A stretch of 64,000 nt of DNA from Dehalococcoidia bacterium (GCA_041390625.1 JAWKPM010000010.1:42514-106513); one strand, 5' to 3'; positions 3,234-64,000 are shown, counted from the stretch's first letter. The notes: generated from the letters alone by a model not told the origin. A program made the numbers and translations.

Positions 3234-4877
3234 ATGACGGACGTCCGACAGCTGGCACGCGAGCGCCTGGAGCGGGAGCGCGGCTTCACGGTGAAGAACT
3301 GGGGCGGCCGCATCCCGGTCGCGATGGTGTACCCGAACTCGTACTACATCGGGATGTCGAACCTGGCGCTGCAGACGGTGTACGCGCTGTTCAATGCGTA
3401 CGACGACTTCGTGTGCGAGCGCGCCTTCTACGACCCGCCCGGCCGCGGCGGCCAGCACCCCGCACCGATCGTCTCGATGGAGTCGCAGCGCGGCCTCGGC
3501 GACTTCGCCGTCATCGCGTTCACGCTGTCGTACGAGTTCGACTACTTCAACATGGTGCAGGTGCTGAAGAGCGCCGGGATCCCGCTGCGCGCCGAGCAGC
3601 GGGACGAGCGCCATCCCCTCGTGATCGCGGGGGGTGCGTGCATGCTCACGAATCCCGCGGGGGTCGCGCCGTTCCTCGACGCCGCGATCGTGGGCGAGGG
3701 CGAGGAGATCGTGCCGGGCCTCGTGGGGGCGTGGCGCGAGGGGCTGTACGGCGACCGCGACGCCCTCCTCGATGAGATGGCCTCGATTCCCGGGGTGTAC
3801 GTGCCCTCGAGGCCGCCGGTCTTCGGTGCGATCGAACGCCAGTGGGTGCACGACATCGCGGGCACCGAGGCGTACTCGACGATCCTCACGGAGGACACCG
3901 AGCTCTCGAACATGACCCTCATTGAGTGCGCGCGCGGGTGCGGTCGCGGCTGCCGCTTCTGCATCGCTGGTTATGTCTTCCGTCCGCCTCGCTACCGTCC
4001 GACGGACGAGCTGCTGCGGATCGTCGAGCACTCGCTGGAGCACACGGAGCGTGTCGGACTCCTCGGTGCCGCCGTGGCGGACCACCCCGAGCTCTCGGAG
4101 CTCGTGATCCAGGCGCACGCGATGGGCGCGCGCGTCTCGATCTCCTCGCTGCGGGTGGACAACCTGCGGCCCGAGGTGCTGCGCGCGATCGCCGAGGGCG
4201 GCACGAAGACCGTGACGGTGGCGCCCGAAGCCGGGTCCGAGCGCATGCGGCAGGCGATCAACAAGGGCGTCTCGGAGGCGGAGATCCTCGCGGGCGCCTC
4301 GATGGTGGGTGAGTCGGGGGCGGCGCGCTTCAAGCTCTACTTCATGGCGGGGCTGCCGGGCGAAGAGGACGACGACGTCTACGCGATGGCGATGCTCGGC
4401 AACCGGATCAAGGAGCGCCTCGATGCCGCAGGGCGCGGCACGCGCCTCGTGATGTCGGTGAGCCCCCTCGTGCCGAAGCCGTGGACGGCGTACCAGTACC
4501 AGCCGGCGATCGACACCGCGAAGGTGAAGGGCCGGATGGGCATCCTGAAGCAGCACCTGGTGCCGGGCATCGAGCTGCGGGCGGACTCGCCGCTGACGGC
4601 GCGCGTCGACGACGTGCTGTCGCGGGCGGATGCGCGCCTCGCGGACATGCTCGAGGCGATGGAGGACAACTCGCTCGGGTCGTACCGGGCGGCGATCCGC
4701 GAGTTCGGCCTGGATGGCGAATTCCCCTGGGATGGGGAGCGGGCGCCGTGGCACATCGTGGACGTGGGGATGACGGAGCGCTTCCTGCTGCGCGAGATGG
4801 ACAAGCACGAGCGCGTGCGGCGCACGATCCCCTGCCCCCCGCCCGAGGTGGGCTGCAAGCTCTGCGGGGTCTGCTGA
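3234..4877 (+). CDS. Radical SAM domain protein (uncharacterised TIGR03960-like family)
   Basis: 547 aa. Has a CX3CX2C motif (ECARGCGRGCRFC) and a C-terminal cysteine cluster (CPPPEVGCKLCGVC). Confidence 0.8.
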   Translation: MTDVRQLARERLERERGFTVKNWGGRIPVAMVYPNSYYIGMSNLALQTVYALFNAYDDFVCERAFYDPPGRGGQHPAPIVSMESQRGLGDFAVIAFTLSYEFDYFNMVQVLKSAGIPLRAEQRDERHPLVIAGGACMLTNPAGVAPFLDAAIVGEGEEIVPGLVGAWREGLYGDRDALLDEMASIPGVYVPSRPPVFGAIERQWVHDIAGTEAYSTILTEDTELSNMTLIECARGCGRGCRFCIAGYVFRPPRYRPTDELLRIVEHSLEHTERVGLLGAAVADHPELSELVIQAHAMGARVSISSLRVDNLRPEVLRAIAEGGTKTVTVAPEAGSERMRQAINKGVSEAEILAGASMVGESGAARFKLYFMAGLPGEEDDDVYAMAMLGNRIKERLDAAGRGTRLVMSVSPLVPKPWTAYQYQPAIDTAKVKGRMGILKQHLVPGIELRADSPLTARVDDVLSRADARLADMLEAMEDNSLGSYRAAIREFGLDGEFPWDGERAPWHIVDVGMTERFLLREMDKHERVRRTIPCPPPEVGCKLCGVC

Positions 4878-4925
4878 GCGGGGCGCCTCCGCGCGGCGGC
4901 GGCCCGCCTCCGACCGGGACTGCCC

Positions 4926-6005
4926 ATGAAGTGGCTCGCGTTCCTCGGATTCCTGGTTGTGGCCTCGATGGTCGTGGGGTGCCGGGACGAGGACCTCGAC
5001 GGCGTCGAGCGCGCCTCGAGGGTTGCGGCGGCGCGGGCGGAGGCGGCGCGGCTCCACGAGGGGGCCTCGTTCGGGATTCAGCGGTGGAACGAAGTGGACT
5101 CGGTCGAGCCTCTGAACGAGGTGGCGGGGTTCGATGTCGTCGTGCCTCGAGGGTTGCCGGACGGGTTCACCGTCGACTGGGTCGTGGCGCAGCCGCCGGT
5201 CGTCGAGCCGAACGGCGGTCAGACGCTCACGATCGCAGTGGTGGCGGTCTCCGCGCGCGCCCGTGAAGGCGTGATCCAGGTGATCGAATCGAGCCGGCCG
5301 CCCGACGAAACCACTGCAGGCACGCAGGTCGCGATCGGCACGACGGTCGGTCGCCTGAGCTACCCACGCTCGGCGGGGGACGGGAGCCCGTTCGCCCAGG
5401 TGGCGTTCACGGGTTGCGGCCTCGGACTGGGGGTGACGACGTACAACCTCGAGACGGGGCCGACCTTCACTGCCGACGAGGTGGTCATCGTGGCGGAGGC
5501 GACGTTCGAGTCGTGTGACGCGGAGCCCGAGGGCGAGTCCCTCGACACACGCTACTTCGTCATCAAGCGTGACGACGCGGTGCCGGATCTGGCTGCGTTC
5601 GAGGCACAGATGGGCATCGACGTCACGCTGCCGACGTACCTGCCGGAACGCGTGACGCCACGTTTCCTCTACGGGTTCCCGTTGTTGCCCGGAACCGGCA
5701 GCAGGCGCGAGAGCCACAGTGTCGCGACGGTGTACGGGCTTGGAGCGAGCGGATCGTTCGTGCTCGCGCAGGAGAGCGCTCGCAACGAGATGGGCGAGGG
5801 CGAGGGCGTCGATGTTGGAGGCGTGCGGGGACACCTCGCGCGATTCGACCCGGCCGATGGTCGCCCGTGGCGACTGACGTGGGAGGCGTGCGACCTCGCG
5901 TTCTCGCTCGAAGTGCCGTCGTTCGATGGGGTGCCGGGTGCGAGCTCGCTCGCGGACGAGGAGCTGATTCGCATGGCGGCCTCGATCGTCGAGGGATGCG
6001 AATGA
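4926..6005 (+). CDS. Lipoprotein, two-repeat paralog family (LolA/DUF4367-like, tentative), copy 1
   Basis: Signal peptide plus lipobox (LVVASMVVGC). Has two internal repeats with the GFDVV.P.GLP / IDVTLPTYLP motif and a C-terminal ...AASIVEGCE. Paralogous to 7582-8664, 8730-9331 and 9979-10617. Confidence 0.7.
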   Translation: MKWLAFLGFLVVASMVVGCRDEDLDGVERASRVAAARAEAARLHEGASFGIQRWNEVDSVEPLNEVAGFDVVVPRGLPDGFTVDWVVAQPPVVEPNGGQTLTIAVVAVSARAREGVIQVIESSRPPDETTAGTQVAIGTTVGRLSYPRSAGDGSPFAQVAFTGCGLGLGVTTYNLETGPTFTADEVVIVAEATFESCDAEPEGESLDTRYFVIKRDDAVPDLAAFEAQMGIDVTLPTYLPERVTPRFLYGFPLLPGTGSRRESHSVATVYGLGASGSFVLAQESARNEMGEGEGVDVGGVRGHLARFDPADGRPWRLTWEACDLAFSLEVPSFDGVPGASSLADEELIRMAASIVEGCE

Positions 6006-6157
6006 CCTCGATGGGCCGATGGTGCTGAATCCGGGACTCGCGACGATGATCGTGGTAACTGACGAGTCTGACGGGCCTCGGTGGTGCGTCGGGGTCGATC
6101 ACGGCAGGGTGTCGCTTCTCGCCGGATGCGTCGCGCTGCCTCGATGCGGGGTGTCGC

Positions 6158-6805
6158 GTGACACAGTCGCCGGCCGGCACGGACGTTCCTGAGGGCGAGC
6201 TCGCCGACGGCGAACTCGTGCGGGTGGTGTACGTCACGGAGCCGGTGGAGCGGCCGTTCGTCGCGCGAGTGGAACACTCCTCGGCGGAGACGACCTCGAT
6301 CGATCTCTTCCGGCTGCCGGGGCGCCAGACGCCGCCGGGGCGCGGCGAGCCGATCGTGATCGTTGCGGACCACCGCACGCCTCGACGGGCGTTCGAGGCG
6401 CACGTGCTCGCGGTCCGGCCGACGCCGCCTCGAATGGAGGTGACGCGGCCGGTCGAGGCGCAGCGGGACGAGCGACGATCGGCGCCTCGGGTGCCGTACG
6501 TCCTCGAGTTCGAGGGCACCGTGCCGGGCGTCACCGGCGTGGCGAGCACGTTCCGCGGCAAGACGCAGGACCTCAGCCGGCGCGGCGCCGCCCTGAGCGC
6601 GGACATCGACCTCCCCCCGGACACGGAAGTGGCGCTGCACGTCCTGCTCGGCGACGAGAGCCCGCCGCTCGCGGTACAGGCGGTCACCCTGCCTCGGATC
6701 GCGCGCGGACGGGCGCGGGGGGCGCTGCGCGTGCGCTTCACCTCGGGCGATGGCGACGCGTTCGCACGCCTCGAGACGATGCTCGAGCAGGCCTCGGGCT
6801 CCTGA
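6158..6805 (+). CDS. PilZ domain protein (c-di-GMP receptor) with a ~100-aa N-terminal extension
   Basis: GTG start. PilZ signature RRSAPR ... DLSRRGAAL (RxxxR ... D/NxSxxG). Confidence 0.75.
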   Translation: MTQSPAGTDVPEGELADGELVRVVYVTEPVERPFVARVEHSSAETTSIDLFRLPGRQTPPGRGEPIVIVADHRTPRRAFEAHVLAVRPTPPRMEVTRPVEAQRDERRSAPRVPYVLEFEGTVPGVTGVASTFRGKTQDLSRRGAALSADIDLPPDTEVALHVLLGDESPPLAVQAVTLPRIARGRARGALRVRFTSGDGDAFARLETMLEQASGS

Positions 6806-6818
6806 TACCGCTTCGATG

Positions 6819-6839
6819 CCCGCCTCTTCTCGGGGCGGG
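6819..6839 (+). terminator. GC-rich hairpin (CCCGCC-N9-GGCGGG) 14 nt after the PilZ stop; no U-tract
   Basis: Inverted repeat read directly from the sequence. Lacks a T-run, so only terminator-like. Confidence 0.35.
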
Positions 6840-6989
6840 TGGGTTCGATCCCGCGGACCTCGACGCCCGGCCGAAGCGCCATGCATCGGCATCACGAATG
6901 AAGGTATAGACCATCACATTCCTGACGATGATCTGACATCCTGACGTCCATCTGACGTCCATTGCAGGTCGAGTCCGGGAGCGTCCCCC

Positions 6990-7529
6990 ATGCAAGTCGT
7001 GCTCTGCGATACGTGCCACCAACCCCTCGGCGGGCGAACCACCGAGATGCACCTGTTCTTCGGGGAGGCGTTCTCGACGCACGACGGTCGCGCTCGGGTG
7101 GCGCACCGCGGGACCTCGAAGGTGTTCAACCTCTGCCAGGGGTGCGGATCCTGGCTCGAGGGGGCGCTGAAGCACCTGCGCGCCTCACACGACCGCCGCA
7201 CGTCGCCTCGGATTCCCGTTGCCCTGGAAGTGGAGGGCATCGTCCTCGACCGAGCGGGGCTGGCGAGCACGTTCCACGCGCGGACGATCAACCTGAGCCA
7301 GGGCGGCGCCGCGCTTTCGACGAACGTCGACATCCCGGCGGGCACCGAGGTGATGCTCCGCTTCCTCGTTGTCGACAAGTCCTTCGAACTTCGAGCGGTG
7401 GCACTGCCTCGGATCGCACCGAGCGGGGATCCGCCGTTGCGTGTTCGCTTCACGGCGAACGACGACCGAGCGCTGGATTGCCTGGACCAGGTGCTGCGCG
7501 CGGCGGCGTCCGCCTCGAGGGCCGCGTAG
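6990..7529 (+). CDS. Zinc-ribbon-PilZ domain protein (c-di-GMP receptor)
   Basis: N-terminal CDTC...CQGC ribbon, then PilZ motifs RRTSPR ... NLSQGGAAL. Confidence 0.75.
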   Translation: MQVVLCDTCHQPLGGRTTEMHLFFGEAFSTHDGRARVAHRGTSKVFNLCQGCGSWLEGALKHLRASHDRRTSPRIPVALEVEGIVLDRAGLASTFHARTINLSQGGAALSTNVDIPAGTEVMLRFLVVDKSFELRAVALPRIAPSGDPPLRVRFTANDDRALDCLDQVLRAAASASRAA

Positions 7530-7581
7530 GCCCGGCCCGGCTCTACACTCCCCGCCACGATCGCGCAGGCCGGGAGGGCAC

Positions 7582-8664
7582 ATGACCGGGCGGAGCGGGG
7601 CGCTCGCGCTGCTGGGGTGCCTGGCGCTGGCCTCGATGCTCGCGGGGTGCCGCGACGAGGACCTCGATGACGTCGAGCGCGCCTCGAGGAACGAGGCGGC
7701 GCGGGCCGAGGCGGCACGGCTGCACGAGGGCGCCACGTACTTCCTGATGGACGTGGCAGAGCTCGATGGCGCGGCGGCGCTGAGTGCAGCCGTCGGCTTC
7801 GACGTCGTCATGCCCCGGGGGCTGCCGGAGGGCCTCGAGGTGAGCGTGGTCATCGGACAGGCGGCGCAGCCCTTCGATGGCGCGTCGTCGCCGGCACTGG
7901 CGAGCGTGACGATGTTCCGCCGTGGCATTGATGGCCTGGTGCAGCTGCTCGAGCTCGAGGGACCGATGGACCCGAGCACGGCCGGTGAGGACGTCGCCCT
8001 TGGTGACGGCGTCGGGCGCCTCGCGGAAGCAACCGGCGAGGGGTCGCCCGGCCGCTTCACCACGCTGACGTTCGAGGGGTGCGGCCTCACCCTCGCGATC
8101 TCGATGCTCGGGCTCGACGCCGAGGGCCCGCCGATCACGCGCGACCAGGCGATCGCGATGGGCACCGCGACGCGCGCCGGCTGCGCAGAACCGCTCCCGG
8201 AGACACCGGTCGTGCGGTACTTCCAGCAGCGACTGGTCGACCTGCCGGACCGTGCTGCCTTCGACGCGAGGGCGGGCTTCGATGTGGTCCTGCCCTCCTA
8301 CCTGCCGCCCGACGCGATGCCGACGTGGGTGACGGGACAGCCGTTCCTGCCCGGCTTCAACGGGGAGCCGGACGGCCGCGGGGCGCAGGCGGTGTACGGC
8401 CTCGATGGGGGGACGCTGCTGCTGACGGAGGGCACGAGACGCCTCGACGTCTCGGCGGGCACGGTGGTCGCGGTGGGCGACCGCAGCGGGCGGCTGCTGC
8501 GCGAGGCCTCGGAGGACGGGGTGCAGCTGATGCTGGCGTGGGAGGGCTGCGGCCTCGAGTTTGCTCTGACGGCGCTGTCGTTCAACGGGGCCGCGGACGG
8601 GCCGCCGCTCGACGAGACGGAACTCGTGCGCATCGCGGCATCGATGCTCGACGGGTGCGAGTGA
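7582..8664 (+). CDS. Lipoprotein, two-repeat paralog family, copy 2
   Basis: Internal ATG at 7582 preceded by GGGAGGG. Lipobox LASMLAGC. The first 25 mature residues are near-identical to copy 1 (CRDEDLD.VERASR..AARAEAARLHEGA). Repeats GFDVVMPRGLPEG and GFDVVLPSYLPPD. C-terminus IAASMLDGCE. Confidence 0.75.
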   Translation: MTGRSGALALLGCLALASMLAGCRDEDLDDVERASRNEAARAEAARLHEGATYFLMDVAELDGAAALSAAVGFDVVMPRGLPEGLEVSVVIGQAAQPFDGASSPALASVTMFRRGIDGLVQLLELEGPMDPSTAGEDVALGDGVGRLAEATGEGSPGRFTTLTFEGCGLTLAISMLGLDAEGPPITRDQAIAMGTATRAGCAEPLPETPVVRYFQQRLVDLPDRAAFDARAGFDVVLPSYLPPDAMPTWVTGQPFLPGFNGEPDGRGAQAVYGLDGGTLLLTEGTRRLDVSAGTVVAVGDRSGRLLREASEDGVQLMLAWEGCGLEFALTALSFNGAADGPPLDETELVRIAASMLDGCE

Positions 8665-8729
8665 CCTCGTTGGTGCGATTCATCCTCGAGGCGGACGCGA
8701 TGCTGCGCGGGCGGCCGTAGCCTCGAGGC

Positions 8730-9331
8730 ATGCGCGTCGCCTCGACGATCCCGGTGGTGCTGGCCTCGATGATCGTCCTCGGGTGCACGAGCGGCGGGGA
8801 TGGTGTGCCAGTGGCCGAGGACGCGACGTTCGAGTGGTGGGATGGGGAGCAGACGCACGCGCGGGTCCCGATCGAGGGCGGCCTCGATGGGGTGGCGGAG
8901 CGCCTCGAGTTTGAGCGGTGCTGCCCTCGGAACTGCCGCACGGGATGGAGTTGCGCTCCGTGCTCGCGATCGGGATGACGTTCGGCGATCAAACGGCACC
9001 AGGCCTGACCTCGGTGCAGCTCGAACTCCGCGACGACGAGAACGCACACCGTCTGTCGCTCGGGGAGCACCAAACGGAGCCGGGCCGGGGGCCGTCGCTC
9101 GCGTTGAACGGGGCGCGCGACGTCGAGATCGCGGGCGTCCCCGTGCGGCGGCACAATCGACCGCCGGAGCCAGGGTGGCCGGATGGCCTGCGCCTGGCCT
9201 CGTGGGTGGCGTGCGGGCTCGAGTTCGGCCTCGGGGGGCCGTTCACCGAGTTCAGCGGGCCGGAGTTCGAGGCGGTCGTGGCCTCGATCATCGAGGCGTG
9301 TGAGGGAGAGCGAGCCTCGGGGGTGCGTTGA
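8730..9331 (+). pseudogene. Frameshifted paralog of the lipoprotein family (single-repeat form)
   Basis: Signal peptide and lipobox (LASMIVLGC) in frame 3 to ~8900 (..LDGVAERLEFE). The homologous continuation (VLPSELPHGMEL ... VVASIIEACEGE) is in frame 2 (8918-9331). Implies a +/-1 frameshift near 8900-8930. Confidence 0.55.
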
Positions 9332-9425
9332 ACCTGTTCATACGTGATCGTTTCAACGTTGATCATAGTTTAGTGCCTGCTAATGTCACCTCGATGTTTT
9401 GACTGCTGCATCGATGGAGGCAGGT

Positions 9426-9938
9426 ATGCACGTTCGACTGATTCGCATCGGGGCGGTGGCCCTGATGCTCGCGACCGCCCTCGTGTTCGTCGGCTGCTCG
9501 GACGACGAGGCCGACGAGCCGGTGGCAGGCGGCGATCCAACGGCGGCCGCGGATCCCGAGGCCGACCCGGAGGCGGACCCGGTCGCCGGCGGCGGGCACG
9601 AGGTGGGGACGCTCACCAACTTCGACGAGACGGTCGAGGTCGACCTGATGGAGTGGGCCGTGAACCCTGACCGCGCCTCGGTGCCGGCCGGGCTCGTCCG
9701 CTTCGTGGCAACGAACGACGGCAGCGAGGTGCACGAGTTCGTGCTGATCGAGGGCACCTCGAAGGACGGCGAGGAGGTGACGGAGATCGAGGGCATCGCG
9801 CCGGGCGACAGCCGCGAGATTGCCGCCCGCCTCGAGCCGGGGACGTACCAGCTGGCGTGCCTGATCGTGGAGGTCGAGGGCGGTGAGACCGAGGACCACT
9901 ACGACCTCGGGATGCACATCGAGTTCACGGTGGAGTGA
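9426..9938 (+). CDS. Cupredoxin-like lipoprotein (EfeO-N-terminal 'Cup'-like), paralog of 53002-53703
   Basis: ATG at 9426 is 5 nt after GGAGG. Lipobox LVFVGC. The C-terminal ~100 aa align with the EfeU-coupled protein (EWAV.P....AG.VRFVA.N.....HE..L......LEPGTYQLACLI...GE.TEDHY..GMH.EFTVE). Confidence 0.7.
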   Translation: MHVRLIRIGAVALMLATALVFVGCSDDEADEPVAGGDPTAAADPEADPEADPVAGGGHEVGTLTNFDETVEVDLMEWAVNPDRASVPAGLVRFVATNDGSEVHEFVLIEGTSKDGEEVTEIEGIAPGDSREIAARLEPGTYQLACLIVEVEGGETEDHYDLGMHIEFTVE

Positions 9939-9978
9939 GCCCGCGCGCCTCGGCCTTCGATGTAGCATCGAGGGCGTG

Positions 9979-10617
9979 ATGATTGCGCGGTTCGCGGAGT
10001 GGCGGAGCGCCTCGGCGGTGGCCGGGGCGCTCGTCGTCTCCGCGCTGGCCTCGATGGTCGTGGCGTGCTCGGACGGCGGGGACGCTGGTGGCGTGCCGGT
10101 GGCCTCGGATGCCGCATTCATGGTGGTCGAGTCCGACGGGTCGAGACGGGCCGTCGATCACCTCGAGGCGTTGCTCGAGCTGGCAGCGTTCGAGGTGGTG
10201 CTTCCCGCCTCGCTGCCTGAAGGCGTCGAGCTGCAGAGCGCGCAGTTGACGCTGCCCGACCCTCGATTCGAGTCGATGGCGCCCTTCGCCCGAGCGCGCG
10301 CCACGCCGGTGCTTCTCAGCTTTCGGGGCCCCGGCGAGGATGCGGCGCGCGGCTTCGCGGTGATGGAGTACGAGGCCGCCGGCGGCAGTCCGACCACCAT
10401 CGGCGACGCAGGCGCGATCGCCTTCGAGCTGCCCGGTGCCGAGGGTGCTCAACTCCTCGACCTGCCGCTCGATGGCAGGCGAGCGCAGTCGGGGACGTCC
10501 GTCGTGTGGCGCGCGTGTGGCGTCGACTTCGCATTGACAGCGCCGGGGTCAGACGTGATGCCTCGGGAGGAGGTGCTCGACCTCGCGCAGGCGTTCATCA
10601 CGGGGTGCGGGTCGTGA
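9979..10617 (+). CDS. Lipoprotein paralog, single-repeat form (copy 4)
   Basis: Lipobox LASMVVAC. Repeat motif LAAFEVVLPASLPEGVEL. Conserved C-terminus LDLAQAFITGCGS. Confidence 0.7.
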   Translation: MIARFAEWRSASAVAGALVVSALASMVVACSDGGDAGGVPVASDAAFMVVESDGSRRAVDHLEALLELAAFEVVLPASLPEGVELQSAQLTLPDPRFESMAPFARARATPVLLSFRGPGEDAARGFAVMEYEAAGGSPTTIGDAGAIAFELPGAEGAQLLDLPLDGRRAQSGTSVVWRACGVDFALTAPGSDVMPREEVLDLAQAFITGCGS

Positions 10618-10643
10618 GGTCGCGGCTGGGGTAGCATCGCGGC

Positions 10644-11357
10644 ATGACGGCCGTCGTGTCGGAAGTACGTGAGCGGGTGGCGGCGGTGCGTGCGCGCATC
10701 GAGGCGGCGTGCGCGCGGGCGGGGCGCGACCCGGGCGAGGTGACACTCATCGCGGTGTCGAAGACGTTCGGCCTCGATGCGGTGGAGGCGGCGCTCGAGG
10801 CCGGGATCACCGACTTCGGAGAGAACCGGGCGCAGCAGCTGGTGCCGAAGGCGGAAGGCGCGGCCTCGATGGGGTTGCGGCCTCGATGGCACTTCATCGG
10901 ACACCTGCAGCGGAACAAGGCACGCGACGTCGTACCGCACATCGTGGCGCTGCACTCGGTCGACTCGCCACGCCTCGTGACGGCGATCTCGCGAGAAATC
11001 ATGCGCATCGGCGAGCATGGGGCGGCTGCCGATGCGGCAGGGTCGTTGCGCTGTTACCTTGAGGTGAACGTGGCCGGTGAGGCCTCGAAGGAGGGCGTGG
11101 CGCCGGACGCGCTGCCGGCGCTCCTCGAGGCGGCGCGGGCCGCGGACGGCGTCGAGGTCGCGGGGCTGATGACGGTGGCCCCGCTGGCGGCCTCGGCGGA
11201 GGCGGCGCGGCCGGTGTTCGCGGCGCTGCGGGAGCTGGCGAGGTCGCACGGCCTCGATGGGCTCTCGATGGGGATGACGAACGACTTCGAGGTCGCGATC
11301 GAAGAGGGCGCGACCATGGTGCGGGTGGGGCGCGCGATCTTCGGGGAGCGCGACTAG
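10644..11357 (+). CDS. YggS-family pyridoxal-phosphate homeostasis protein (PLPBP)
   Basis: Full-length match to the YggS/PROSC pattern (VTLIAVSKT...GENRAQ...[10 protein letters not shown]...[10 protein letters not shown]). Confidence 0.9.
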
Positions 11358-53001: not shown

Positions 53002-53703
53002 CTACTCGACGGTGAACTCCGTGTGCATGCCGGAGGCGTAGTGGTCCTCGGTTGAGCCGGCCTCGCCCGGGGCGATCAGACAGGCCAGCTGGTAGGTACC
53101 GGGCTCGAGGGTGGCGACGACCTCGCCGCTCTGGCCCGGCTCGAGGCCCTCGACCTCGGCGATCTCGAAGCGCTCGCCGTTCTCGCCGATCGCGAGGATG
53201 GCGAGCTCGTGGGTCATCGTCTCCGACTCGTTGTGGGCGACGAAGCGGACCGTGCCGGCCTCGACGCTCGGCGCGCTCGGGGTGACGCTCCACTCGGCGA
53301 GCGCGACATCGATGGACGCGGTTGCGGCGGACGGATCCACGGCGGCGCTGCCTTCGCCGGCGACGAGCTCGATGATGGTCGTCGGTCCGTCCGGGCTGTA
53401 GCACTTCACGAGGTAGGTGGCGTCGGTCGCGTCCGGCACCGTGTAGTCGATGTGCCTCGTGCGGCCGTCGGGCACGAGGACTTCCTCGATGCGGGTGCCC
53501 TCGATGCCCTCGAACTCGCGGTCGGCGTTGGCGTGGTTGTTCACGTTGAACGTGATCGCCTCGCCCGGGGTGACGGCGACGGTGGCAGGCGCGCAGGCCT
53601 CGGGTTCGACCTCGATGTCGATTTCTCGGCCCTCGGCGCTGCTGCTGCAGGCGAGAGTGACGATGGCGGTCAGTGCGAGGAGGGTCGCGACGAAGCGCTT
53701 CAT
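53002..53703 (-). CDS. Cupredoxin-like lipoprotein coupled to the FTR1 permease (EfeO-Cup/P19-like role)
   Basis: MKRFVATLLALTAIVTLACSS lipobox. ATGA overlap with the upstream permease stop. Paralog of 9426-9938 (shared C-terminal LEPGTYQLACLI...TEDHY.SGMHTEFTVE). Confidence 0.7.
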   Translation of the reverse strand: MKRFVATLLALTAIVTLACSSSAEGREIDIEVEPEACAPATVAVTPGEAITFNVNNHANADREFEGIEGTRIEEVLVPDGRTRHIDYTVPDATDATYLVKCYSPDGPTTIIELVAGEGSAAVDPSAATASIDVALAEWSVTPSAPSVEAGTVRFVAHNESETMTHELAILAIGENGERFEIAEVEGLEPGQSGEVVATLEPGTYQLACLIAPGEAGSTEDHYASGMHTEFTVE

Positions 53704-54596
53704 CGGGCGTGCTGCCTTTCGGAGTCCCCGGCGTGTCCGCTCGGGGTCGGAGTTTCGTTGGTACCGGCCGGGGCCGGCATGAGCCGCGTGGTCGGATGCG
53801 GCCAGAAGAGGAAGAACGCGACGCCGGAGACCAGGTAGCCCCAGAAGAGCGCGATCTGACCCCAGGTGGGCGCCGGGTCGTAGCCCAGCAGGGTGTGGAA
53901 GAACTTGCCGGAGGCGTCGGTGAGCGACAGCCAGGAGTCCGTGTCCCACGGGCGGCTGCCGAGGTTCGCGATGAAACCGGACTCCTGGAGCTCCGCGATG
54001 CCGTTCGAGACCATGCCGGCCGCGATCACGAGGACGGCGATGCCGCTCACGGTGAAGAACTGGCGGAGCGGGAGGCGATGCGAGCCTCGGTAGACGACGT
54101 AGCCGAGGGCTGCCGCCACGGCAAAACCCGCCACGGCGCCGAACCAGAACATCGCGGGCGAGCCAGAGGCTGTCGTTGAGCCGGCGAAGAGGAAGACCCC
54201 GGTCTCGATGCCCTCGCGCATGACGGAGAGGAAGGCGAGGCCGGCGAGCCCCCACCTCGATGAGCCGGAGAGCGCGACGTTGACCTGGCGGCGCAGCTCG
54301 GCGCCGATGCCGGCTGCCTGGCGGCGCATCCAGAACACCATCCAGGTCAGGACAACGACGGCGACGAGCATCATCACGCCCTCGAAGGCCTCGCTGGCGG
54401 CGGGCGAGAGGTCACGCGATGTCACCTCGAGGGCGACGACGACGACCGAGGAGAGGGCGACCGCGAGCCCGGCGCCGAGCCAGACCCGACCGAAGTGGGC
54501 GCGGTTGCCCGTGCGAGCGAGGTAGCCCAGGACGATCGCCAGCACGAGCGCGATCTCGAAGCCCTCGCGAAGCGTGATGAGGAATGAGAACAGCAA
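53700..54596 (-). CDS. FTR1/EfeU-family high-affinity iron permease
   Basis: Two REXXE motifs (LREGFEIALVL and VMREGIETGVFL). 7 TM helices. Confidence 0.85.
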   Translation of the reverse strand: MLFSFLITLREGFEIALVLAIVLGYLARTGNRAHFGRVWLGAGLAVALSSVVVVALEVTSRDLSPAASEAFEGVMMLVAVVVLTWMVFWMRRQAAGIGAELRRQVNVALSGSSRWGLAGLAFLSVMREGIETGVFLFAGSTTASGSPAMFWFGAVAGFAVAAALGYVVYRGSHRLPLRQFFTVSGIAVLVIAAGMVSNGIAELQESGFIANLGSRPWDTDSWLSLTDASGKFFHTLLGYDPAPTWGQIALFWGYLVSGVAFFLFWPHPTTRLMPAPAGTNETPTPSGHAGDSERQHAR

Positions 54597-59021: not shown

Positions 59022-59296
59022 CGATGCCCCCTTCTCGCGGCGGTGCACGTGCGAATTCGCGCCCACCGCGGCTTCGGCGGCATGGTAGCGGCCTCGACCA
59101 CACCTGTGGAGCGGTTGACGGTCCTCGAACCGGGCCCGTTCGAGGCCTCATGGGCCGTCTGCGGCGGCGCAGGAATACGGAATCATCCGGAATCTGCCGA
59201 CTCTCTGAGTATGCGTCCGTGAACCGGGACCTTCGGGACCCGGGCGGCGCGTACCTCGAGGCCTGCGCGGGCAGGCTCGCCGTCGAGAGGCCGACC

Positions 59297-60922
59297 GTGA
59301 CCGAGCTGCAGCGCCTGCTGGAACCGAAGCGCCGAGGACGGCGGCCGGACGACCACGAGCCGCTGCGTTGCCTCGCGATCGACGCGCAGGGCGGGCCGTC
59401 GCGCGAGATGGCGAAGCTCCTCGACAAGACCGACCAGCGCTGGATCCTCGACCGTGCCGAGCGGCTCCCGACCGCCCTCGAGGCGCTGAGCTCGGGCGAG
59501 TTCCACATCGTGCTGGCACATGTGCGGCAGCCGGACGGCCAGGTGCTGAACGCGTTGCAGCGGATGCGCCAGGTCGCGCCGGAGACCGCGGTCCTCGTGC
59601 TGACCGAGTTCGCGCCTCAGGCGTTCGCGGAGCAGGCGCTCGGGCAGGGGGCGCAGGACGTACTGCAGCGCTCCAAGCTGGACGCCTCGACGCTCGCGCA
59701 CGCGATTCGGTACTCGATCGAGCGGCAGCGGATTCGCGGCCTGTACGAGCGGGAGCTGTGGTCGGCCTCGATCCTGCACATGGACTACCTGAGCATCGTG
59801 TCGAACAGCGCCGACGCGATCCTGATCCTCAACCAGGGAGGCAGCGTCGAGTTCCTGAACCCGGCGGCGGAGTCGATGTTCGGCGTACGGGCGGCAGAGG
59901 CGATCGGACGGCCGTGCCCCTTCGGGCAGGTCACGAGCGACTCCTTCGAGATCGAGGTGCCGGACCGCGAGGGGCGCCCGCGCCAGGCCGAGGTGCAGTC
60001 CGTCGAGACCTCGTGGCGGGGCCTCGACGCGACGCTCGCGGTGGTGCGCGACATCACGGACCGACGCGCCCTCGAGCTGCAGCTCGGGCAGGCGCAGAAG
60101 CTCGAGTCGGTCGGTCGCCTCGCGGCCGGCATCGCCCACGAGATCAACACGCCGACGCAGTTCATCACCGACAACGTGAAGTACCTGCGCGGCGTCTTCG
60201 AGCGGTTCGTGCCGGCCGTCGCGGCCGCGGAGTCGCTGCTCGAGGCGGCGGAGGCCGGCCCCCTCGATCAAGGCGCGCTCGAGGAGCTGCGCACCTCGGT
60301 GGCGGCGGCACGCCTCGAGGACGCGCGCGAGGAAGTACCGGAGGCGTTCGAGGACAGCCTCGATGGGCTCAAGCAGGTGGCGCGCATCGTGGGTGCGATG
60401 AAGGTGTTCGCGCACCCGGGATCCGAGGAGAAGACGGGCGTCGATCTGCGCCAGGCGATCGAGAGCACGGTCGCCGTCGCTCGCCACGAGTGGCGCGACG
60501 TCGCGGACGTCGAGCTCGACATCGAGGAGACGCTACCGACGGTGCCGGCGATGGGCGGCGACCTGAACCAGGTCATCCTCAACCTCATCGTGAACGCCAG
60601 CCAGGCGATCGAGGACCGGCCGAACTGCACCGAGCGCGGCCGCATCGACATCCGGGCGCACCGCCGGGGCGACTGGGTGGAGATGTGCGTCTCCGACAAC
60701 GGCGTCGGCATCCCGGACGAGAACCGGAAGCACATCTTCGATCCCTTCTTCACGACGAAGGAGGTCGGTCGCGGGACCGGGCAGGGGCTCTCGATCAGCC
60801 GGACGATCGTGGTGGAGCGGCATGGCGGGATGCTCGACGTGGCCTCGAAGCCGGGCGAAGGCTCGACGTTCACGGTGCGCCTGCCGCTGACGGAGGAGGC
60901 CGCGCTCCAGGGCGCGGCGTAG
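59297..60922 (+). CDS. Sensor histidine kinase with N-terminal pseudo-receiver and PAS domains
   Basis: GTG 6 nt after GAGAGG (alternative ATG at 59408). The REC-like N-terminus has Ala where the phospho-Asp should be (FHIVLAHV). PAS domain. H-box LAAGIAHEINTP. N, G1 and G2 boxes (DNGVGIP, GTGQGLSIS). Confidence 0.8.
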   Translation: MTELQRLLEPKRRGRRPDDHEPLRCLAIDAQGGPSREMAKLLDKTDQRWILDRAERLPTALEALSSGEFHIVLAHVRQPDGQVLNALQRMRQVAPETAVLVLTEFAPQAFAEQALGQGAQDVLQRSKLDASTLAHAIRYSIERQRIRGLYERELWSASILHMDYLSIVSNSADAILILNQGGSVEFLNPAAESMFGVRAAEAIGRPCPFGQVTSDSFEIEVPDREGRPRQAEVQSVETSWRGLDATLAVVRDITDRRALELQLGQAQKLESVGRLAAGIAHEINTPTQFITDNVKYLRGVFERFVPAVAAAESLLEAAEAGPLDQGALEELRTSVAAARLEDAREEVPEAFEDSLDGLKQVARIVGAMKVFAHPGSEEKTGVDLRQAIESTVAVARHEWRDVADVELDIEETLPTVPAMGGDLNQVILNLIVNASQAIEDRPNCTERGRIDIRAHRRGDWVEMCVSDNGVGIPDENRKHIFDPFFTTKEVGRGTGQGLSISRTIVVERHGGMLDVASKPGEGSTFTVRLPLTEEAALQGAA

Positions 60923-60932
60923 GGAGGACACG

Positions 60933-62135
60933 ATGACCAGACGTCGAGTCCTGTTCGTCGACGACGAGCCTCGTGTGCTGCGAGGTCTGCGGCGTCTGCT
61001 CGACCCGATGCGGGACGAGTGGGAAATCTCCTTCGCGGAGTCGGGCGCCGAGGCCCTCGACAAGCTGAGCGAGGCCGAGTTCGATGCCGTCGTCACCGAC
61101 ATGCGCATGCCGGGCATGGATGGCGCCGAGCTGCTGCACGAGGTGCTGCGCCGCCACCCACACACCGTGCGCATCGTGCTGTCCGGTCAGTCCGACCAGG
61201 AGACGCGGCTGCGCGCGGCCGGCCCGACGCACCAGTTCCTCACGAAGCCCTGCGACGAAGAGACGCTGCGGCGCACCCTCACCCGGGCGTGCGACCTGCG
61301 CGATCTGCTGCGTCGCGACTCCCTGCGCAGGCTCGTGGGGCAGCTGAAGACGCTGCCGAGCCTCGGGACGGTGCAGCGCGACCTGCGCACGGAGCTGATG
61401 TCGCCCGACCCCTCAATGCGGAAGGTGGGGGATCTCATCTCGCAGGACGTCGCGATGACGGCGAAGGTCCTGCAGCTCGTGAACTCGTCCTTCTTCGGCG
61501 CGCCGAAGCGCGTGGGCTCGGTGTCCGAGGCCGTGCTGATGCTCGGGCTGAACGTCATCCGCGACCTGATGCTGACCGAGTCCGTCTTCGGGGCGTACAT
61601 GGCCGACGGCGCGCTCGAGCTCGTCGAGCCGATTCGCGACCACAGCGACTTCGTGGGCGGCCTCGCGTACGAGATCGCGGCCGCCGAGGGCGCCGACCTG
61701 CAGGTGCGCGGCGACGCGCAACTCGCGGGACAGCTGCACGATGCCGGCGCGCTCGTGCTCGCGGCGAACATGCCGATGGAGTTCCGCAAGGCGGCGGCCG
61801 TCGCGCGCATGCGCAACATCGAGCGTTGGCAGGGCGAGGTTGAGCTCTTCGGCGCCGACCACGGCGAGGTGGGCGCGTACCTCCTCGGCATCTGGGGCAT
61901 CCCCGACCCGATCGTGGAGGCCGTGGCGTTCCACCACCGCCCGGCGCAGGCGCCGACGCATGGCTTCACGCCGCTCACCGCCGTGCACGTCGCCGACGCG
62001 CTGGCTCACGAGGTCGACGGGCAGGATGACTCCGTGCTCGTCACCTCGGTGGACGAGGAGTACCTCGAGCGGCTGGGGCTGCTCGACCGCCTCGATGGCT
62101 GGCGACTGCTCGCACTCAAGCGCAAGGCCGCCTAA
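60933..62135 (+). CDS. Response regulator, REC + HDOD output domain
   Basis: VLFVDDEP...DAVVTDMRMPGMDG (phospho-Asp context) followed by an HDOD-like domain. Confidence 0.8.
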   Translation: MTRRRVLFVDDEPRVLRGLRRLLDPMRDEWEISFAESGAEALDKLSEAEFDAVVTDMRMPGMDGAELLHEVLRRHPHTVRIVLSGQSDQETRLRAAGPTHQFLTKPCDEETLRRTLTRACDLRDLLRRDSLRRLVGQLKTLPSLGTVQRDLRTELMSPDPSMRKVGDLISQDVAMTAKVLQLVNSSFFGAPKRVGSVSEAVLMLGLNVIRDLMLTESVFGAYMADGALELVEPIRDHSDFVGGLAYEIAAAEGADLQVRGDAQLAGQLHDAGALVLAANMPMEFRKAAAVARMRNIERWQGEVELFGADHGEVGAYLLGIWGIPDPIVEAVAFHHRPAQAPTHGFTPLTAVHVADALAHEVDGQDDSVLVTSVDEEYLERLGLLDRLDGWRLLALKRKAA

Positions 62136-62173
62136 CGGCGGCCCTGCGGCTTAGTCAAGACTGGCTGGCGGCG

Positions 62174-63745: not shown

Positions 63746-64000
63746 GAGACATCCTCCACTGCCGCGACGATGCATTCGCCCGCCACGACCGACTGGACGG
63801 TCACGAGCTCACCGGCGCCGATCGCCTGGTGGCTTCCCGAACGGGCGGCAGCGGAGTGCGTGCCACCCGCGCGTTCGAACTGGATACGTCCGACACCCGC
63901 CGCGGGGATCGCGAGCGTGACGCGGACCTGCGCGCCGATGAGATCGGCGAGCGCGAAGTTGGAGGAGACCTCCTGCTTCATGAAGAAGCGCGTCATGGCG
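63742..64000 (-). CDS. NfeD-like protein (OB-fold C-terminal domain), probably 5'-truncated by the window edge
   Basis: C-terminal beta-barrel pattern (GAQVRV...GRIQFERAGGTHSAAARSG...GELVTVQSVVAGE). The frame is still open at base 64000. Classic nfeD-floT pairing. Confidence 0.6.
   Translation of the reverse strand, partial: AMTRFFMKQEVSSNFALADLIGAQVRVTLAIPAAGVGRIQFERAGGTHSAAARSGSHQAIGAGELVTVQSVVAGECIVAAVEDVS

What the first reader, a model, noticed from the sequence alone, without database searches (positions are those of the whole stretch)
4926..10617. Co-directional array of four paralogous lipoproteins, two PilZ c-di-GMP receptors and a cupredoxin lipoprotein
The array runs 5.7 kb on one strand.

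Gene order:
- two-repeat lipoprotein, copy 1
- PilZ protein with an N-terminal extension
- zinc-ribbon-PilZ protein
- two-repeat lipoprotein, copy 2
- frameshifted single-repeat lipoprotein
- cupredoxin-like lipoprotein
- single-repeat lipoprotein

The lipoproteins share a lipobox (L/V-ASM-x-V-x-C), an internal GFDVV(L/M)P..LP motif (duplicated in the long forms) and a conserved ...A(A/S)(I/M)(V/L)(E/D)GC(E/G) C-terminus. Copies 1 and 2 are almost identical over the first ~25 mature residues. So this is a recently expanded family, not a random neighbourhood.

Two cytoplasmic c-di-GMP receptors embedded among envelope lipoproteins suggest a second-messenger-controlled envelope module. I cannot match this module to a characterised system.
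Basis: partly seen in the sequence, partly recalled or inferred. Interest (0 to 1): 0.75.

Follow-up and report, generated by a model that had tools for sequence, protein, structure and literature searches.

The report
Variable lipoprotein array with passenger PilZ genes
A Dehalococcoidia genome carries a fast-evolving tandem family of membrane-anchored DUF4367-like lipoproteins in a variable gap between two housekeeping genes; the two PilZ genes and the cupredoxin among them are additions specific to this lineage, not parts of a conserved c-di-GMP envelope system.

Summary
On one strand lie four paralogous lipobox proteins (six copies of a ~155-aa domain, one gene frameshifted), two paralogous PilZ proteins with intact c-di-GMP-binding motifs, and a cupredoxin lipoprotein.

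The interpretation does not hold up.
- **Conserved part.** Only the lipoprotein family is conserved. It sits directly downstream of a TIGR03960 radical-SAM gene in seven related metagenomic contigs, with 1-4 copies each.
- **PilZ and cupredoxin.** None of those contigs has a PilZ or cupredoxin gene, except a near-identical strain (rSAM 98% aa).
- **Variable gap.** In 12 further Dehalococcoidia genomes the same rSAM-yggS gap is 0.2-2 kb and holds no relative of the array genes. Where its content could be read, it is unrelated (methyltransferases, a PIN protein).
- **PilZ relatives.** No relatives of either PilZ protein were found anywhere.
- **Age of the family.** The expansion is not recent. 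Copies 1 and 2 share 44% identity (dS ~0.9), and their shared N-terminal peptide is also kept in orthologues.

The best reading is a birth-and-death array of extracytoplasmic binding modules in a genomic hotspot. Interest is low to moderate.

The parts
3234..4877 (+). TIGR03960-family B12-binding radical SAM gene. It is the conserved left anchor of the variable gap.
   Evidence: Pfam Radical_SAM_N2 and Radical_SAM. NCBIfam TIGR03960 E 3e-94, below that model's cut-off. Orthologues at 78-98% identity in 24 loci.
4926..6005 (+). Lpp1: two-repeat type-A lipoprotein. It has the lipobox VVGC, the conserved CRDEDLD...RLHEGA N-terminal peptide, and two DUF4367-like domains.
   Evidence: It is identical to the NCBI MAG protein R3C39_11520, annotated 'hypothetical'.
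6158..6805 (+). PilZ1: PilZ domain at residues 105-210, with RSAPR and DLSRRG motifs and a 104-aa N-terminal extension of unknown fold.
   Evidence: Pfam PF07238, 37.6 bits. No relative other than itself. No PDB sequence match.
6871..6970 (.). AT-rich intergenic patch (GC 45-52% in a 69% GC window) with a tandem 11-mer, CTGACGTCCAT x2, at 6941-6962. It is probably the promoter/operator region of PilZ2.
   Evidence: Only about 1% of 60-nt windows in the 64 kb fall below 55% GC. The function is inferred.
6990..7529 (+). PilZ2: N-terminal CxxC...CxxC (zinc-ribbon pattern) plus a PilZ domain at residues 68-167, with RTSPR and NLSQGG motifs.
   Evidence: Pfam PF07238, 34 bits. 48% identical to PilZ1 over the PilZ domain. 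No relative other than itself.
7582..8664 (+). Lpp2: two-repeat type-A lipoprotein with the lipobox LAGC.
   Evidence: (R3C39_11535).
8730..9331 (+). LppFS: single-repeat type-B lipoprotein interrupted by a frameshift near 8911-8917. It is either a pseudogene or an assembly error.
   Evidence: NCBI called only the C-terminal fragment (P0009).
9311..9425 (.). AT-rich intergenic patch (GC 40-50%) with the imperfect inverted repeat GTTGAAC...GTTTCAAC. It is probably the promoter/operator of the cupredoxin gene.
   Evidence: The function is inferred.
9426..9938 (+). Cupredoxin-like lipoprotein with the lipobox FVGC. It resembles the N-terminal Cup domain of EfeO.
   Evidence: Pfam Cupredoxin_1, 31.1 bits against 27. 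NCBIfam EfeO partial match E 1e-12. PDB 7wgu EfeO, E 3e-4. A 49%-identical paralogous domain lies beside FTR1 at 53005-54411(-). The start at ATG 9426 was chosen from a GGAGG motif upstream, which is an inference.
9976..10617 (+). Lpp4: single-repeat type-B lipoprotein with the lipobox VVAC.
   Evidence: Orthologues on L001 (69%), L022 (54%) and L023 (53%).
10644..11357 (+). yggS (PLP-binding protein). It is the conserved right anchor, followed by proC, yggT, DUF167(-) and recA.
   Evidence: NCBIfam TIGR00044, 161.7 bits against 106. Synteny in 12 GTDB genomes.

Best explanation
The 5.7-kb array fills a hypervariable gap between two conserved housekeeping genes: a TIGR03960 radical-SAM gene and the yggS-proC-yggT-recA block.

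The native, conserved occupant of this gap in one Dehalococcoidia sub-lineage is a tandem family of lipobox proteins. Each is built from a ~155-aa alpha/beta domain that is a divergent DUF4367 relative with an RseB/MucB-like fold and a conserved cysteine pair.

The family behaves as a birth-and-death array:
- Copy number runs from 0 to 4 among relatives.
- Single-domain genes and two-domain fusions both occur.
- Frameshifted copies are common.
- Non-synonymous change runs about 10-fold faster than in the flanking gene, while dN/dS stays below 1.

The two PilZ genes are a tandem pair. The cupredoxin gene is a paralogue of an FTR1-linked cupredoxin elsewhere in the window. Both are additions to the gap specific to this lineage.

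Inferred mechanism: the lipoproteins are lipid-anchored on the outer face of the cytoplasmic membrane. They act as extracytoplasmic binding modules for a partner protein segment or a hydrophobic envelope ligand, as domains of this fold do in RseB/MucB, and the paralogues diversify specificity. The PilZ proteins probably do bind c-di-GMP, but they act on unknown cytoplasmic targets independently of the lipoproteins.
For: **Shown**
- Repeat paralogy and invariant residues.
- Synteny of rSAM ... yggS-proC-yggT-recA in 12 GTDB Dehalococcoidia genomes. The gap is 179-2065 bp there, and ORFs across the 16 regions downstream of rSAM gave no Lpp-profile hit. Some gaps hold methyltransferase-like or PIN ORFs, read by eye.
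- Family members directly downstream of rSAM, or next to yggS, without PilZ or cupredoxin:
  - L024: rSAM 87%, one Lpp, then yggS.
  - L025: rSAM 80%, one Lpp, two PIN-MazE pairs, then yggS.
  - L022: rSAM 91%, four tandem Lpp, one of them broken.
  - L001: rSAM 92%, a two-repeat Lpp, then a type-B Lpp.
  - L023: a two-repeat Lpp, a type-B Lpp, then yggS.
  - L020: rSAM 95%, then an Lpp.
- Rate contrast:
  - Against strain L021, Lpp1 has dN 0.095 and rSAM 0.008 (dN/dS 0.33 against 0.05).
  - Against L022, Lpp has dN 0.37-0.60 and rSAM 0.059.
- Homology to DUF4367:
  - The repeat profile finds 71 cluster representatives among 1.84 billion. Most are 170-200-aa proteins, and those I read have lipoboxes.
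  - 15 of 51 scanned hit DUF4367.
  - P0065, P0074 and P0046 pass Pfam's DUF4367 cut-off. P0065 and P0046 also carry LolA-like or MucB_RseB N-domains.
- PilZ proteins are orphans.
- The cupredoxin paralogue lies beside FTR1.
- Two AT-rich patches split the array into probable separate transcription units.

**Inferred**
- Membrane anchoring, from the lipoboxes.
- Binding function, from the fold and from the domain contexts of DUF4367.
Against: - PilZ2-Lpp2-LppFS are separated by only 52 and 65 bp and may be co-transcribed. Lpp1 followed by PilZ1 is kept in strain L021. A local functional link in this lineage therefore cannot be excluded.
- Most comparison contigs are short (1.3-5.6 kb), so PilZ genes just beyond their ends would be missed. 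Against that, L022, L023, L024 and L025 cover the full interval.
- dS is near saturation in this 70% GC genome, so the rate ratios are approximate.
- The searches for PilZ relatives rely on word or pattern seeding and can miss distant orthologues.
Confidence: 0.7

Rival explanations
1. The array is one functional, c-di-GMP-controlled envelope module, in which the PilZ receptors sense c-di-GMP and control production, export or activity of the neighbouring lipoproteins and the cupredoxin.
For: - All genes are co-directional.
- The PilZ genes lie between Lpp1 and Lpp2.
- The gaps PilZ2-Lpp2 (52 bp) and Lpp2-LppFS (65 bp) are short.
- Both PilZ domains keep their c-di-GMP-binding motifs.
- The Lpp1 to PilZ1 adjacency is kept in strain L021.
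Against: - Six independent loci carry the lipoprotein family without PilZ or cupredoxin.
- No PilZ orthologues were found anywhere.
- L021 is about 96% identical in nucleotides, so it is not independent evidence.
- The array encodes no membrane-spanning component that could couple cytoplasmic PilZ proteins to extracytoplasmic lipoproteins.
- AT-rich patches suggest at least three transcription units.
Confidence: 0.1
2. The lipoproteins are functionally tied to the upstream TIGR03960 radical-SAM enzyme, for example as its substrates or as partners in one pathway. That tie would explain why a family member directly follows that gene even in a distant relative.
For: - A family member starts 10-100 bp downstream of the rSAM gene on the same strand in the window and in L001, L020, L021, L022, L024 and L025.
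- This includes L025, where rSAM is 80% identical and the Lpp only about 26-32% identical over local matches.
Against: - The same rSAM gene (78-83% identity) has no such neighbour in 16 other Dehalococcoidia genomes, where the gap holds unrelated genes or almost nothing.
- Family members also occur away from any rSAM. L026 lies next to an ORF that looks like argS by eye, and L028 next to AP_endonuc_2.
- The enzyme is cytoplasmic and the lipoproteins are exported.
Confidence: 0.1
3. The array is a metal-handling (Cu/Fe) envelope module. The cupredoxin lipoprotein and the Cys-pair lipoproteins would cooperate in metal binding or delivery, in the manner of EfeO.
For: - The cupredoxin lipoprotein matches Cupredoxin_1 and the N-terminal domain of EfeO.
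- Its paralogue lies beside an FTR1 iron permease.
- Each Lpp domain has two invariant cysteines.
Against: - The cupredoxin is absent from every other locus that carries the Lpp family.
- Two cysteines at the end of a strand and the end of the C-terminal helix are more simply a structural disulfide.
- The Lpp domain has no metal-binding family match.
Confidence: 0.05

Closest known systems
DUF4367 (PF14285) domains, as in Bacillus subtilis SsdC/YdcC-type LolA-like + DUF4367 proteins and the extracytoplasmic parts of anti-sigma-like regulators
   Same: - The window's repeat profile reaches proteins that pass Pfam's DUF4367 cut-off (P0065, P0074, P0046).
- Intermediates P0016, P0017 and P0020 match the full-length DUF4367 model at 18-22 bits.
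- Shared traits are the 'PF..x.P..LP.G' entry motif, domain size and extracytoplasmic location.
   Different: - The window proteins themselves give no DUF4367 hit.
- They are stand-alone lipoproteins, or tandem two-domain lipoproteins, with no LolA-like or regulatory partner domain.
- They carry a conserved Cys pair and, in type A, a conserved charged N-terminal peptide.
- DUF4367 has no known function.
RseB / MucB (periplasmic regulators of the sigma-E/AlgU anti-sigma factors)
   Different: - Only 15% identity and rmsd about 6 A, so this is fold-level similarity only.
- No MucB_RseB Pfam hit.
- The array has no anti-sigma or sigma genes.
- RseB is soluble and has two different domains.
Single-domain and N-terminally extended PilZ c-di-GMP receptors (PF07238; the TIGR02266 paralogous PilZ family of Myxococcus)
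   Same: PilZ1 and PilZ2 pass the Pfam PilZ threshold and keep RxxxR and (D/N)xSxxG. Both give weak TIGR02266 matches.
   Different: - No YcgR-N/PilZN hit for the PilZ1 extension.
- The zinc-ribbon-like N-terminus of PilZ2 matches no curated model.
- TIGR02266 scores (27-33 bits) lie far below its cut-off of 68.7.
- No orthologues were found.
EfeO N-terminal cupredoxin (Cup) domain / Cupredoxin_1 lipoproteins
   Same: Pfam Cupredoxin_1 hit above threshold. Local matches to EfeO models and to PDB 7wgu. A paralogue lies beside an FTR1 permease.
   Different: It lacks EfeO's C-terminal M75 domain (47 bits against a cut-off of 270). It is a stand-alone lipoprotein with no adjacent permease.

Membership tests
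PilZ domain (PF07238) | Profile match above Pfam's gathering score | tested here: met
   37.6 bits (PilZ1) and 34.0 bits (PilZ2) against a cut-off of 22.5.
PilZ domain (PF07238) | c-di-GMP-binding motifs RxxxR and (D/N)xSxxG | tested here: met
   PilZ1 has RSAPR and DLSRRG. PilZ2 has RTSPR and NLSQGG. Both were read from the alignment.
PilZ domain (PF07238) | Actual binding of c-di-GMP | not testable with these tools
   This needs a binding assay.
YcgR-type PilZ (PilZN + PilZ) | N-terminal YcgR/PilZN domain | tested here: not met
   The 104-aa extension of PilZ1 gives no Pfam hit at E <= 1 and no PDB sequence match.
DUF4367 (PF14285) | Profile match above the gathering score for the window proteins themselves | tested here: not met
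   No DUF4367 hit at E <= 1. The only hit is DUF4245 at 16.8 and 11.8 bits against a cut-off of 30.1.
DUF4367 (PF14285) | Homology by profile to bona fide members (superfamily level) | tested here: met
   - The repeat profile hits P0065 (E 2.9e-4), P0074 (9.4e-4) and P0046 (4.2e-5) in a library of 1.84 billion.
- These proteins score 32.5, 37 and 28 bits on DUF4367 against a cut-off of 22.1.
- 15 of 51 family members hit DUF4367.
RseB/MucB family | MucB_RseB profile match and two-domain architecture | tested here: not met
Bacterial lipoproteins | Signal peptide ending in a lipobox [LVI][ASTVI][GAS]C | tested here: met
   Read from the translations: VVGC (Lpp1), LAGC (Lpp2), VLGC (LppFS), VVAC (Lpp4) and FVGC (cupredoxin), each after a hydrophobic stretch. 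No dedicated predictor was available.
Bacterial lipoproteins | Lgt/LspA processing and lipid modification in this organism | not tested
   Only a 64-kb window is available, and it was not searched for these genes.
Cupredoxin_1 (PF13473) | Profile match above the gathering score | tested here: met
   31.1 bits against 27.
Cupredoxin_1 (PF13473) | Type-1 copper ligand set (His, Cys, His, Met) | tested here: inconclusive
   Candidate residues exist (EVHEF, LAC, EDH, GMH), read by eye only. No structure-based check was made.
EfeO (NF041757) | Full-length match including the M75 domain | tested here: not met
   47.4 bits against a cut-off of 270. Only profile positions 13-91 of 359 are matched.
   No PilZ in L001, L022, L023, L024, L025 or L026, which carry the Lpp family, nor in the 17 rSAM-anchored Dehalococcoidia/Chloroflexota loci. 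It is present only in the near-identical strain L021.
Anti-phage defence systems (PADLOC) and phage protein families (PHROGs) | Any profile match | tested here: not met
   No hits for the seven array proteins at E <= 0.01.

The most novel reading that the evidence does not exclude
In this Dehalococcoidia lineage the two orphan PilZ proteins, one with a zinc-ribbon-like N-terminus, may have been recruited into the lipoprotein array and may couple c-di-GMP levels to expression or export of specific DUF4367-like lipoproteins. Possible units are PilZ2-Lpp2-LppFS and Lpp1-PilZ1. That would be a young, lineage-specific c-di-GMP-controlled surface module, and the first functional handle on DUF4367.
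Probability: 0.07. Interest if true: 0.55.

Novelty: new member of a known kind. Interest (0 to 1): 0.25.

Why it matters
The finding mostly clears up an over-interpretation: the co-directional array is not a conserved signalling system.

What remains is modest.
- It defines a previously unannotated, fast-evolving branch of the DUF4367 superfamily. The branch consists of lipobox proteins in uncultured Dehalococcoidia and now has a confident fold model.
- It identifies the rSAM-yggS junction as a hotspot of gene turnover in this class.

Both are useful for annotating Chloroflexota MAGs and for anyone seeking the function of DUF4367. Neither is surprising to a specialist, and neither opens a long-standing question.

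Tried and rejected
- **Exact look-up of Lpp1.** The contig index returned nothing. The source was instead identified from the protein search as an NCBI Dehalococcoidia MAG.
- **Locus scans with the lipoprotein.** Patterns from the A4 alignment found no relatives in genome contigs or metagenome contigs. I switched to the flanking rSAM gene as a synteny anchor and to exact look-ups of profile hits.
- **Searches for PilZ relatives.** Word-seeded searches with PilZ1 and PilZ2, and a metagenome pattern scan with their alignment, found only the query proteins themselves.
- **afdb50 fold library.** It was unavailable.
- **Mobile-element or defence-island idea for the gap.** No PADLOC or PHROG hits. 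No long flanking repeats. Composition is native (GC 0.68-0.74; GC3 0.84-0.91 for six array ORFs).
- **Riboswitch or other RNA in the intergenic gaps.** Rfam gave only sub-threshold microRNA noise.
- **Promoter and terminator scan.** Uninformative.
- **Recent gene conversion as the cause of the identical N-terminal peptide.** dS in that segment is 0.38, against 0.89 gene-wide. The value is lower but not near zero, and the peptide is conserved in orthologues, so constraint is the main cause. Some older conversion is not excluded.
- **Literature.** Nothing on PilZ in Dehalococcoidia or on TIGR03960, and only one paper mentions DUF4367.

Full report
**1. What is there**

The window is about 70% GC. 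It matches an NCBI MAG annotated 'Dehalococcoidia bacterium': Lpp1 is R3C39_11520 and Lpp2 is R3C39_11535, both 'hypothetical'.

Between a TIGR03960-family B12-binding radical-SAM gene (3234-4877) and yggS (10644-11357) lie seven + strand genes:

| Gene | Coordinates | Notes |
|---|---|---|
| Lpp1 | 4926-6005 | two repeats |
| PilZ1 | 6158-6805 | PilZ domain with N-terminal extension |
| PilZ2 | 6990-7529 | zinc-ribbon pattern plus PilZ domain |
| Lpp2 | 7582-8664 | two repeats |
| LppFS | 8730-9331 | one repeat, frameshifted |
| Cupredoxin lipoprotein | 9426-9938 | Cupredoxin_1 |
| Lpp4 | 9976-10617 | one repeat |

- The frameshift falls inside the conserved 'FE-x-VLPxxLP' motif at about 8911-8917. 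It is consistent with loss of a single base.
- The repeat unit is about 155 aa. Eight aligned units, six from the window and two from a metagenomic orthologue, share invariant P, L, P, G, C, C.
- An HMM of the unit finds only these four genes in the 64-kb window.
- The PilZ proteins are paralogues, 48% identical over the domain (E 4e-23). Both retain RxxxR and (D/N)xSxxG.
- PilZ2 has CxxC...CxxC at its N-terminus.
- A MAFFT alignment hints that the PilZ1 extension may be a degenerate copy that has lost all four cysteines. This is weak, because BLASTP aligns only the PilZ domain.

**2. What the lipoprotein domain is**

No curated model covers the window proteins. The only hit is DUF4245, well below threshold.

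A profile of the repeat, searched against 1.84 billion cluster representatives, found only 71 proteins at E <= 1e-3. Most are 170-200 aa. The twenty I read mostly have lipoboxes, the 'PF..x.P..LP.G' motif, 'W..CG..F.L' and a C-terminal '..A.S....C'.

Several lines tie the family to DUF4367:
- 15 of 51 scanned members hit Pfam DUF4367 and 6 hit DUF4245.
- Intermediates match the full-length DUF4367 model at borderline scores.
- Multidomain hits P0065, P0074 and P0046 pass the DUF4367 cut-off. P0065 and P0046 also carry LolA-like or MucB_RseB N-terminal domains.

The domain is therefore a divergent DUF4367-superfamily module with an RseB/MucB-like alpha/beta fold, a fold used widely for extracytoplasmic binding. 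DUF4367 itself has no assigned function. The only paper in the library that mentions it notes it as an extra domain in B. subtilis SsdC (10.1101/2025.01.13.632879).

**3. Comparative genomics**

I used the flanking rSAM protein as an anchor and fetched 17 Dehalococcoidia/Chloroflexota loci from GTDB species representatives (78-83% identity).
- In the 12 of them that reach yggS, the order rSAM ... yggS-proC-yggT-DUF167(-)-recA is conserved as far as each contig reaches. The rSAM-yggS gap ranges from 179 bp to about 2.1 kb, against 5.8 kb in the window.
- Where the gap ORFs could be read by eye, they are unrelated: methyltransferase-like in four loci, and PIN, SnoaL-like and DUF488-like elsewhere.
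- Neither the narrow nor the broad repeat profile hits anything in these loci.

Exact look-ups of profile hits gave the informative relatives:

| Locus | rSAM identity | Content of the gap |
|---|---|---|
| L021 | 98% aa | Lpp1 orthologue, then the first codons of PilZ1 (near-identical strain, about 96% nt in rSAM) |
| L020 | 95% | type-A Lpp, then contig end |
| L001 | 92% | two-repeat type-A Lpp, then a type-B Lpp |
| L022 | 91% | four tandem family genes (A, broken A, two-repeat A, B), then unrelated genes |
| L024 | 87% | one single-repeat type-A Lpp, then yggS |
| L023 | not on contig | two-repeat A, then B, then yggS |
| L025 | 80% | one distant single-repeat member, two PIN-MazE pairs, then yggS |
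| L026 | not on contig | two tandem members beside an ORF that looks like argS by eye |

None of these except L021 has a PilZ or cupredoxin gene. PilZ1 and PilZ2 have no detectable relatives beyond themselves in the 5.8-billion-protein index or in a metagenome pattern scan.

The lipoprotein family is therefore the conserved tenant of this locus in one sub-lineage. Relative to L023, the window carries an extra block of about 3.9 kb (PilZ1-PilZ2-Lpp2-LppFS-cupredoxin) between an Lpp1-type gene and an Lpp4-type gene.

**4. Tempo**

| Comparison | aa identity |
|---|---|
| Lpp1 vs Lpp2 | 44% (dS about 0.89) |
| LppFS vs Lpp4 | 35% |
| Lpp1 vs L023 orthologue | 63% |
| Lpp2 vs L001 | 49% |

The paralogues are as old as the divergence among these genomes, so the expansion is not recent.

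The identical N-terminal peptide after the lipid-modified Cys (CRDEDLDGVERASR..ARAEAARLHEGA) is also present in L001, L020 and L022, and partly in L024. Its local dS is 0.38. Constraint is the main explanation, with some older gene conversion possible.

Against the flanking rSAM gene the lipoproteins accumulate non-synonymous changes about 6-11 times faster:
- Against L021, dN is 0.095 for Lpp1 and 0.008 for rSAM, and dN/dS is 0.33 and 0.05.
- Against L022, dN is 0.37-0.60 for the Lpp genes and 0.059 for rSAM.

dN/dS stays below 1, so the genes are functional but weakly constrained or locally diversifying. Broken copies recur: LppFS here, the second gene of L022, and the L020 and L021 assemblies. 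This fits birth-and-death turnover, although assembly errors cannot be excluded.

**5. Organisation**

Only about 1% of 60-nt windows in the 64 kb fall below 55% GC. Two such patches lie inside the array.
- 6871-6970, upstream of PilZ2, holds a tandem CTGACGTCCAT x2.
- 9311-9425, upstream of the cupredoxin gene, holds an imperfect inverted repeat.

This suggests at least three transcription units, which is an inference. No Rfam family, defence-system model or phage family matches.

The cupredoxin is 49% identical to a domain of a double-cupredoxin protein encoded beside an FTR1 iron permease at 53005-54596(-). Its nearest functional context is therefore EfeUO-like iron uptake, not the lipoproteins.

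**6. Explanation and rivals**

Best-supported reading (confidence about 0.7): the array is a hotspot between housekeeping genes, occupied by a fast-evolving tandem family of lipid-anchored, extracytoplasmic DUF4367-like binding modules. The PilZ pair and the cupredoxin are passengers specific to this lineage. The binding role is inferred from the fold and from the contexts of DUF4367 (LolA-like/RseB-like proteins and membrane-tethered regulators). It has not been shown.

| Rival | Confidence | Main weakness |
|---|---|---|
| Functional tie to the upstream rSAM | about 0.1 | adjacency recurs even in L025, but 16 genomes lack it and members occur elsewhere |
| Metal-handling module | about 0.05 | cupredoxin is absent from all other loci with the family |

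**7. Verdict**

In novelty terms this is a new member or sub-family of a known but uncharacterised domain superfamily, together with ordinary PilZ and cupredoxin genes. Interest is 0.25.

Noticed in passing
window 53005-54596 (-): An FTR1-family iron permease (53700-54596) lies beside a protein with two Cupredoxin_1 stretches (ORF 53005-54411, another frame). Its C-terminal domain is 49% identical to the array's cupredoxin lipoprotein. This looks like an EfeU/EfeO-Cup-type iron-uptake pair and may be the source of the array's cupredoxin gene.
   Followed up: partly
window 4878-10643; loci L002-L017, gap between rSAM and yggS: The junction between the TIGR03960 rSAM gene and yggS-proC-yggT-recA is a hotspot of gene turnover across Dehalococcoidia. 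The gap is 179 bp to 5.8 kb and holds methyltransferase-like ORFs, PIN/MazE toxin-antitoxin pairs, SnoaL-like or DUF488-like ORFs, or the lipoprotein family.
   Followed up: yes
window 4961-4984, 5978-6001, 7629-7652, 8637-8660, 9280-9303, 10047-10070: A 24-nt motif (GGCCTCGATsnTCGnGGnTGC, 75-83% identity) recurs at the lipobox-coding site (ASMVVGC) and at the C-terminus-coding site (ASIVEGC) of the lipoprotein genes. Such shared ends could promote in-frame fusions or deletions between tandem copies, which might be how the two-repeat forms arose. It may also be coincidence.
   Followed up: no
window 6941-6962: A tandem 11-mer, CTGACGTCCAT x2, with further CTGAC copies just upstream, sits in an AT-rich patch before PilZ2. 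It could be an operator site.
   Followed up: no
window 9330-9365: An imperfect inverted repeat, CGTTGAAC...GTTTCAACG, sits in the AT-richest 60-nt stretch found between 3000 and 12600 (GC about 40%), just upstream of the cupredoxin gene. It could be a regulator-binding site.
   Followed up: no
L021 1180-2145; L020 820-1487; L022 8325-8868: Family members in three other assemblies are also interrupted by frameshifts or truncations. This means either recurrent pseudogenisation in the family or systematic assembly errors in these high-GC genes.
   Followed up: partly
window 59024-63775: A hybrid sensor kinase (REC-PAS-HATPase, 59024-60922) is followed by a REC-HDOD response regulator (60933-62135). 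A flotillin/SPFH gene lies on the opposite strand (62174-63775). Among the ten proteins from outside the array that I scanned against Pfam, none has a GGDEF, EAL or HD-GYP domain.
   Followed up: partly
window 6158-6469 vs 6990-7190: The 104-aa N-terminal extension of PilZ1 aligns loosely with the zinc-ribbon region of PilZ2 but lacks all four cysteines. It may be a degenerate zinc ribbon left after tandem duplication.
   Followed up: no
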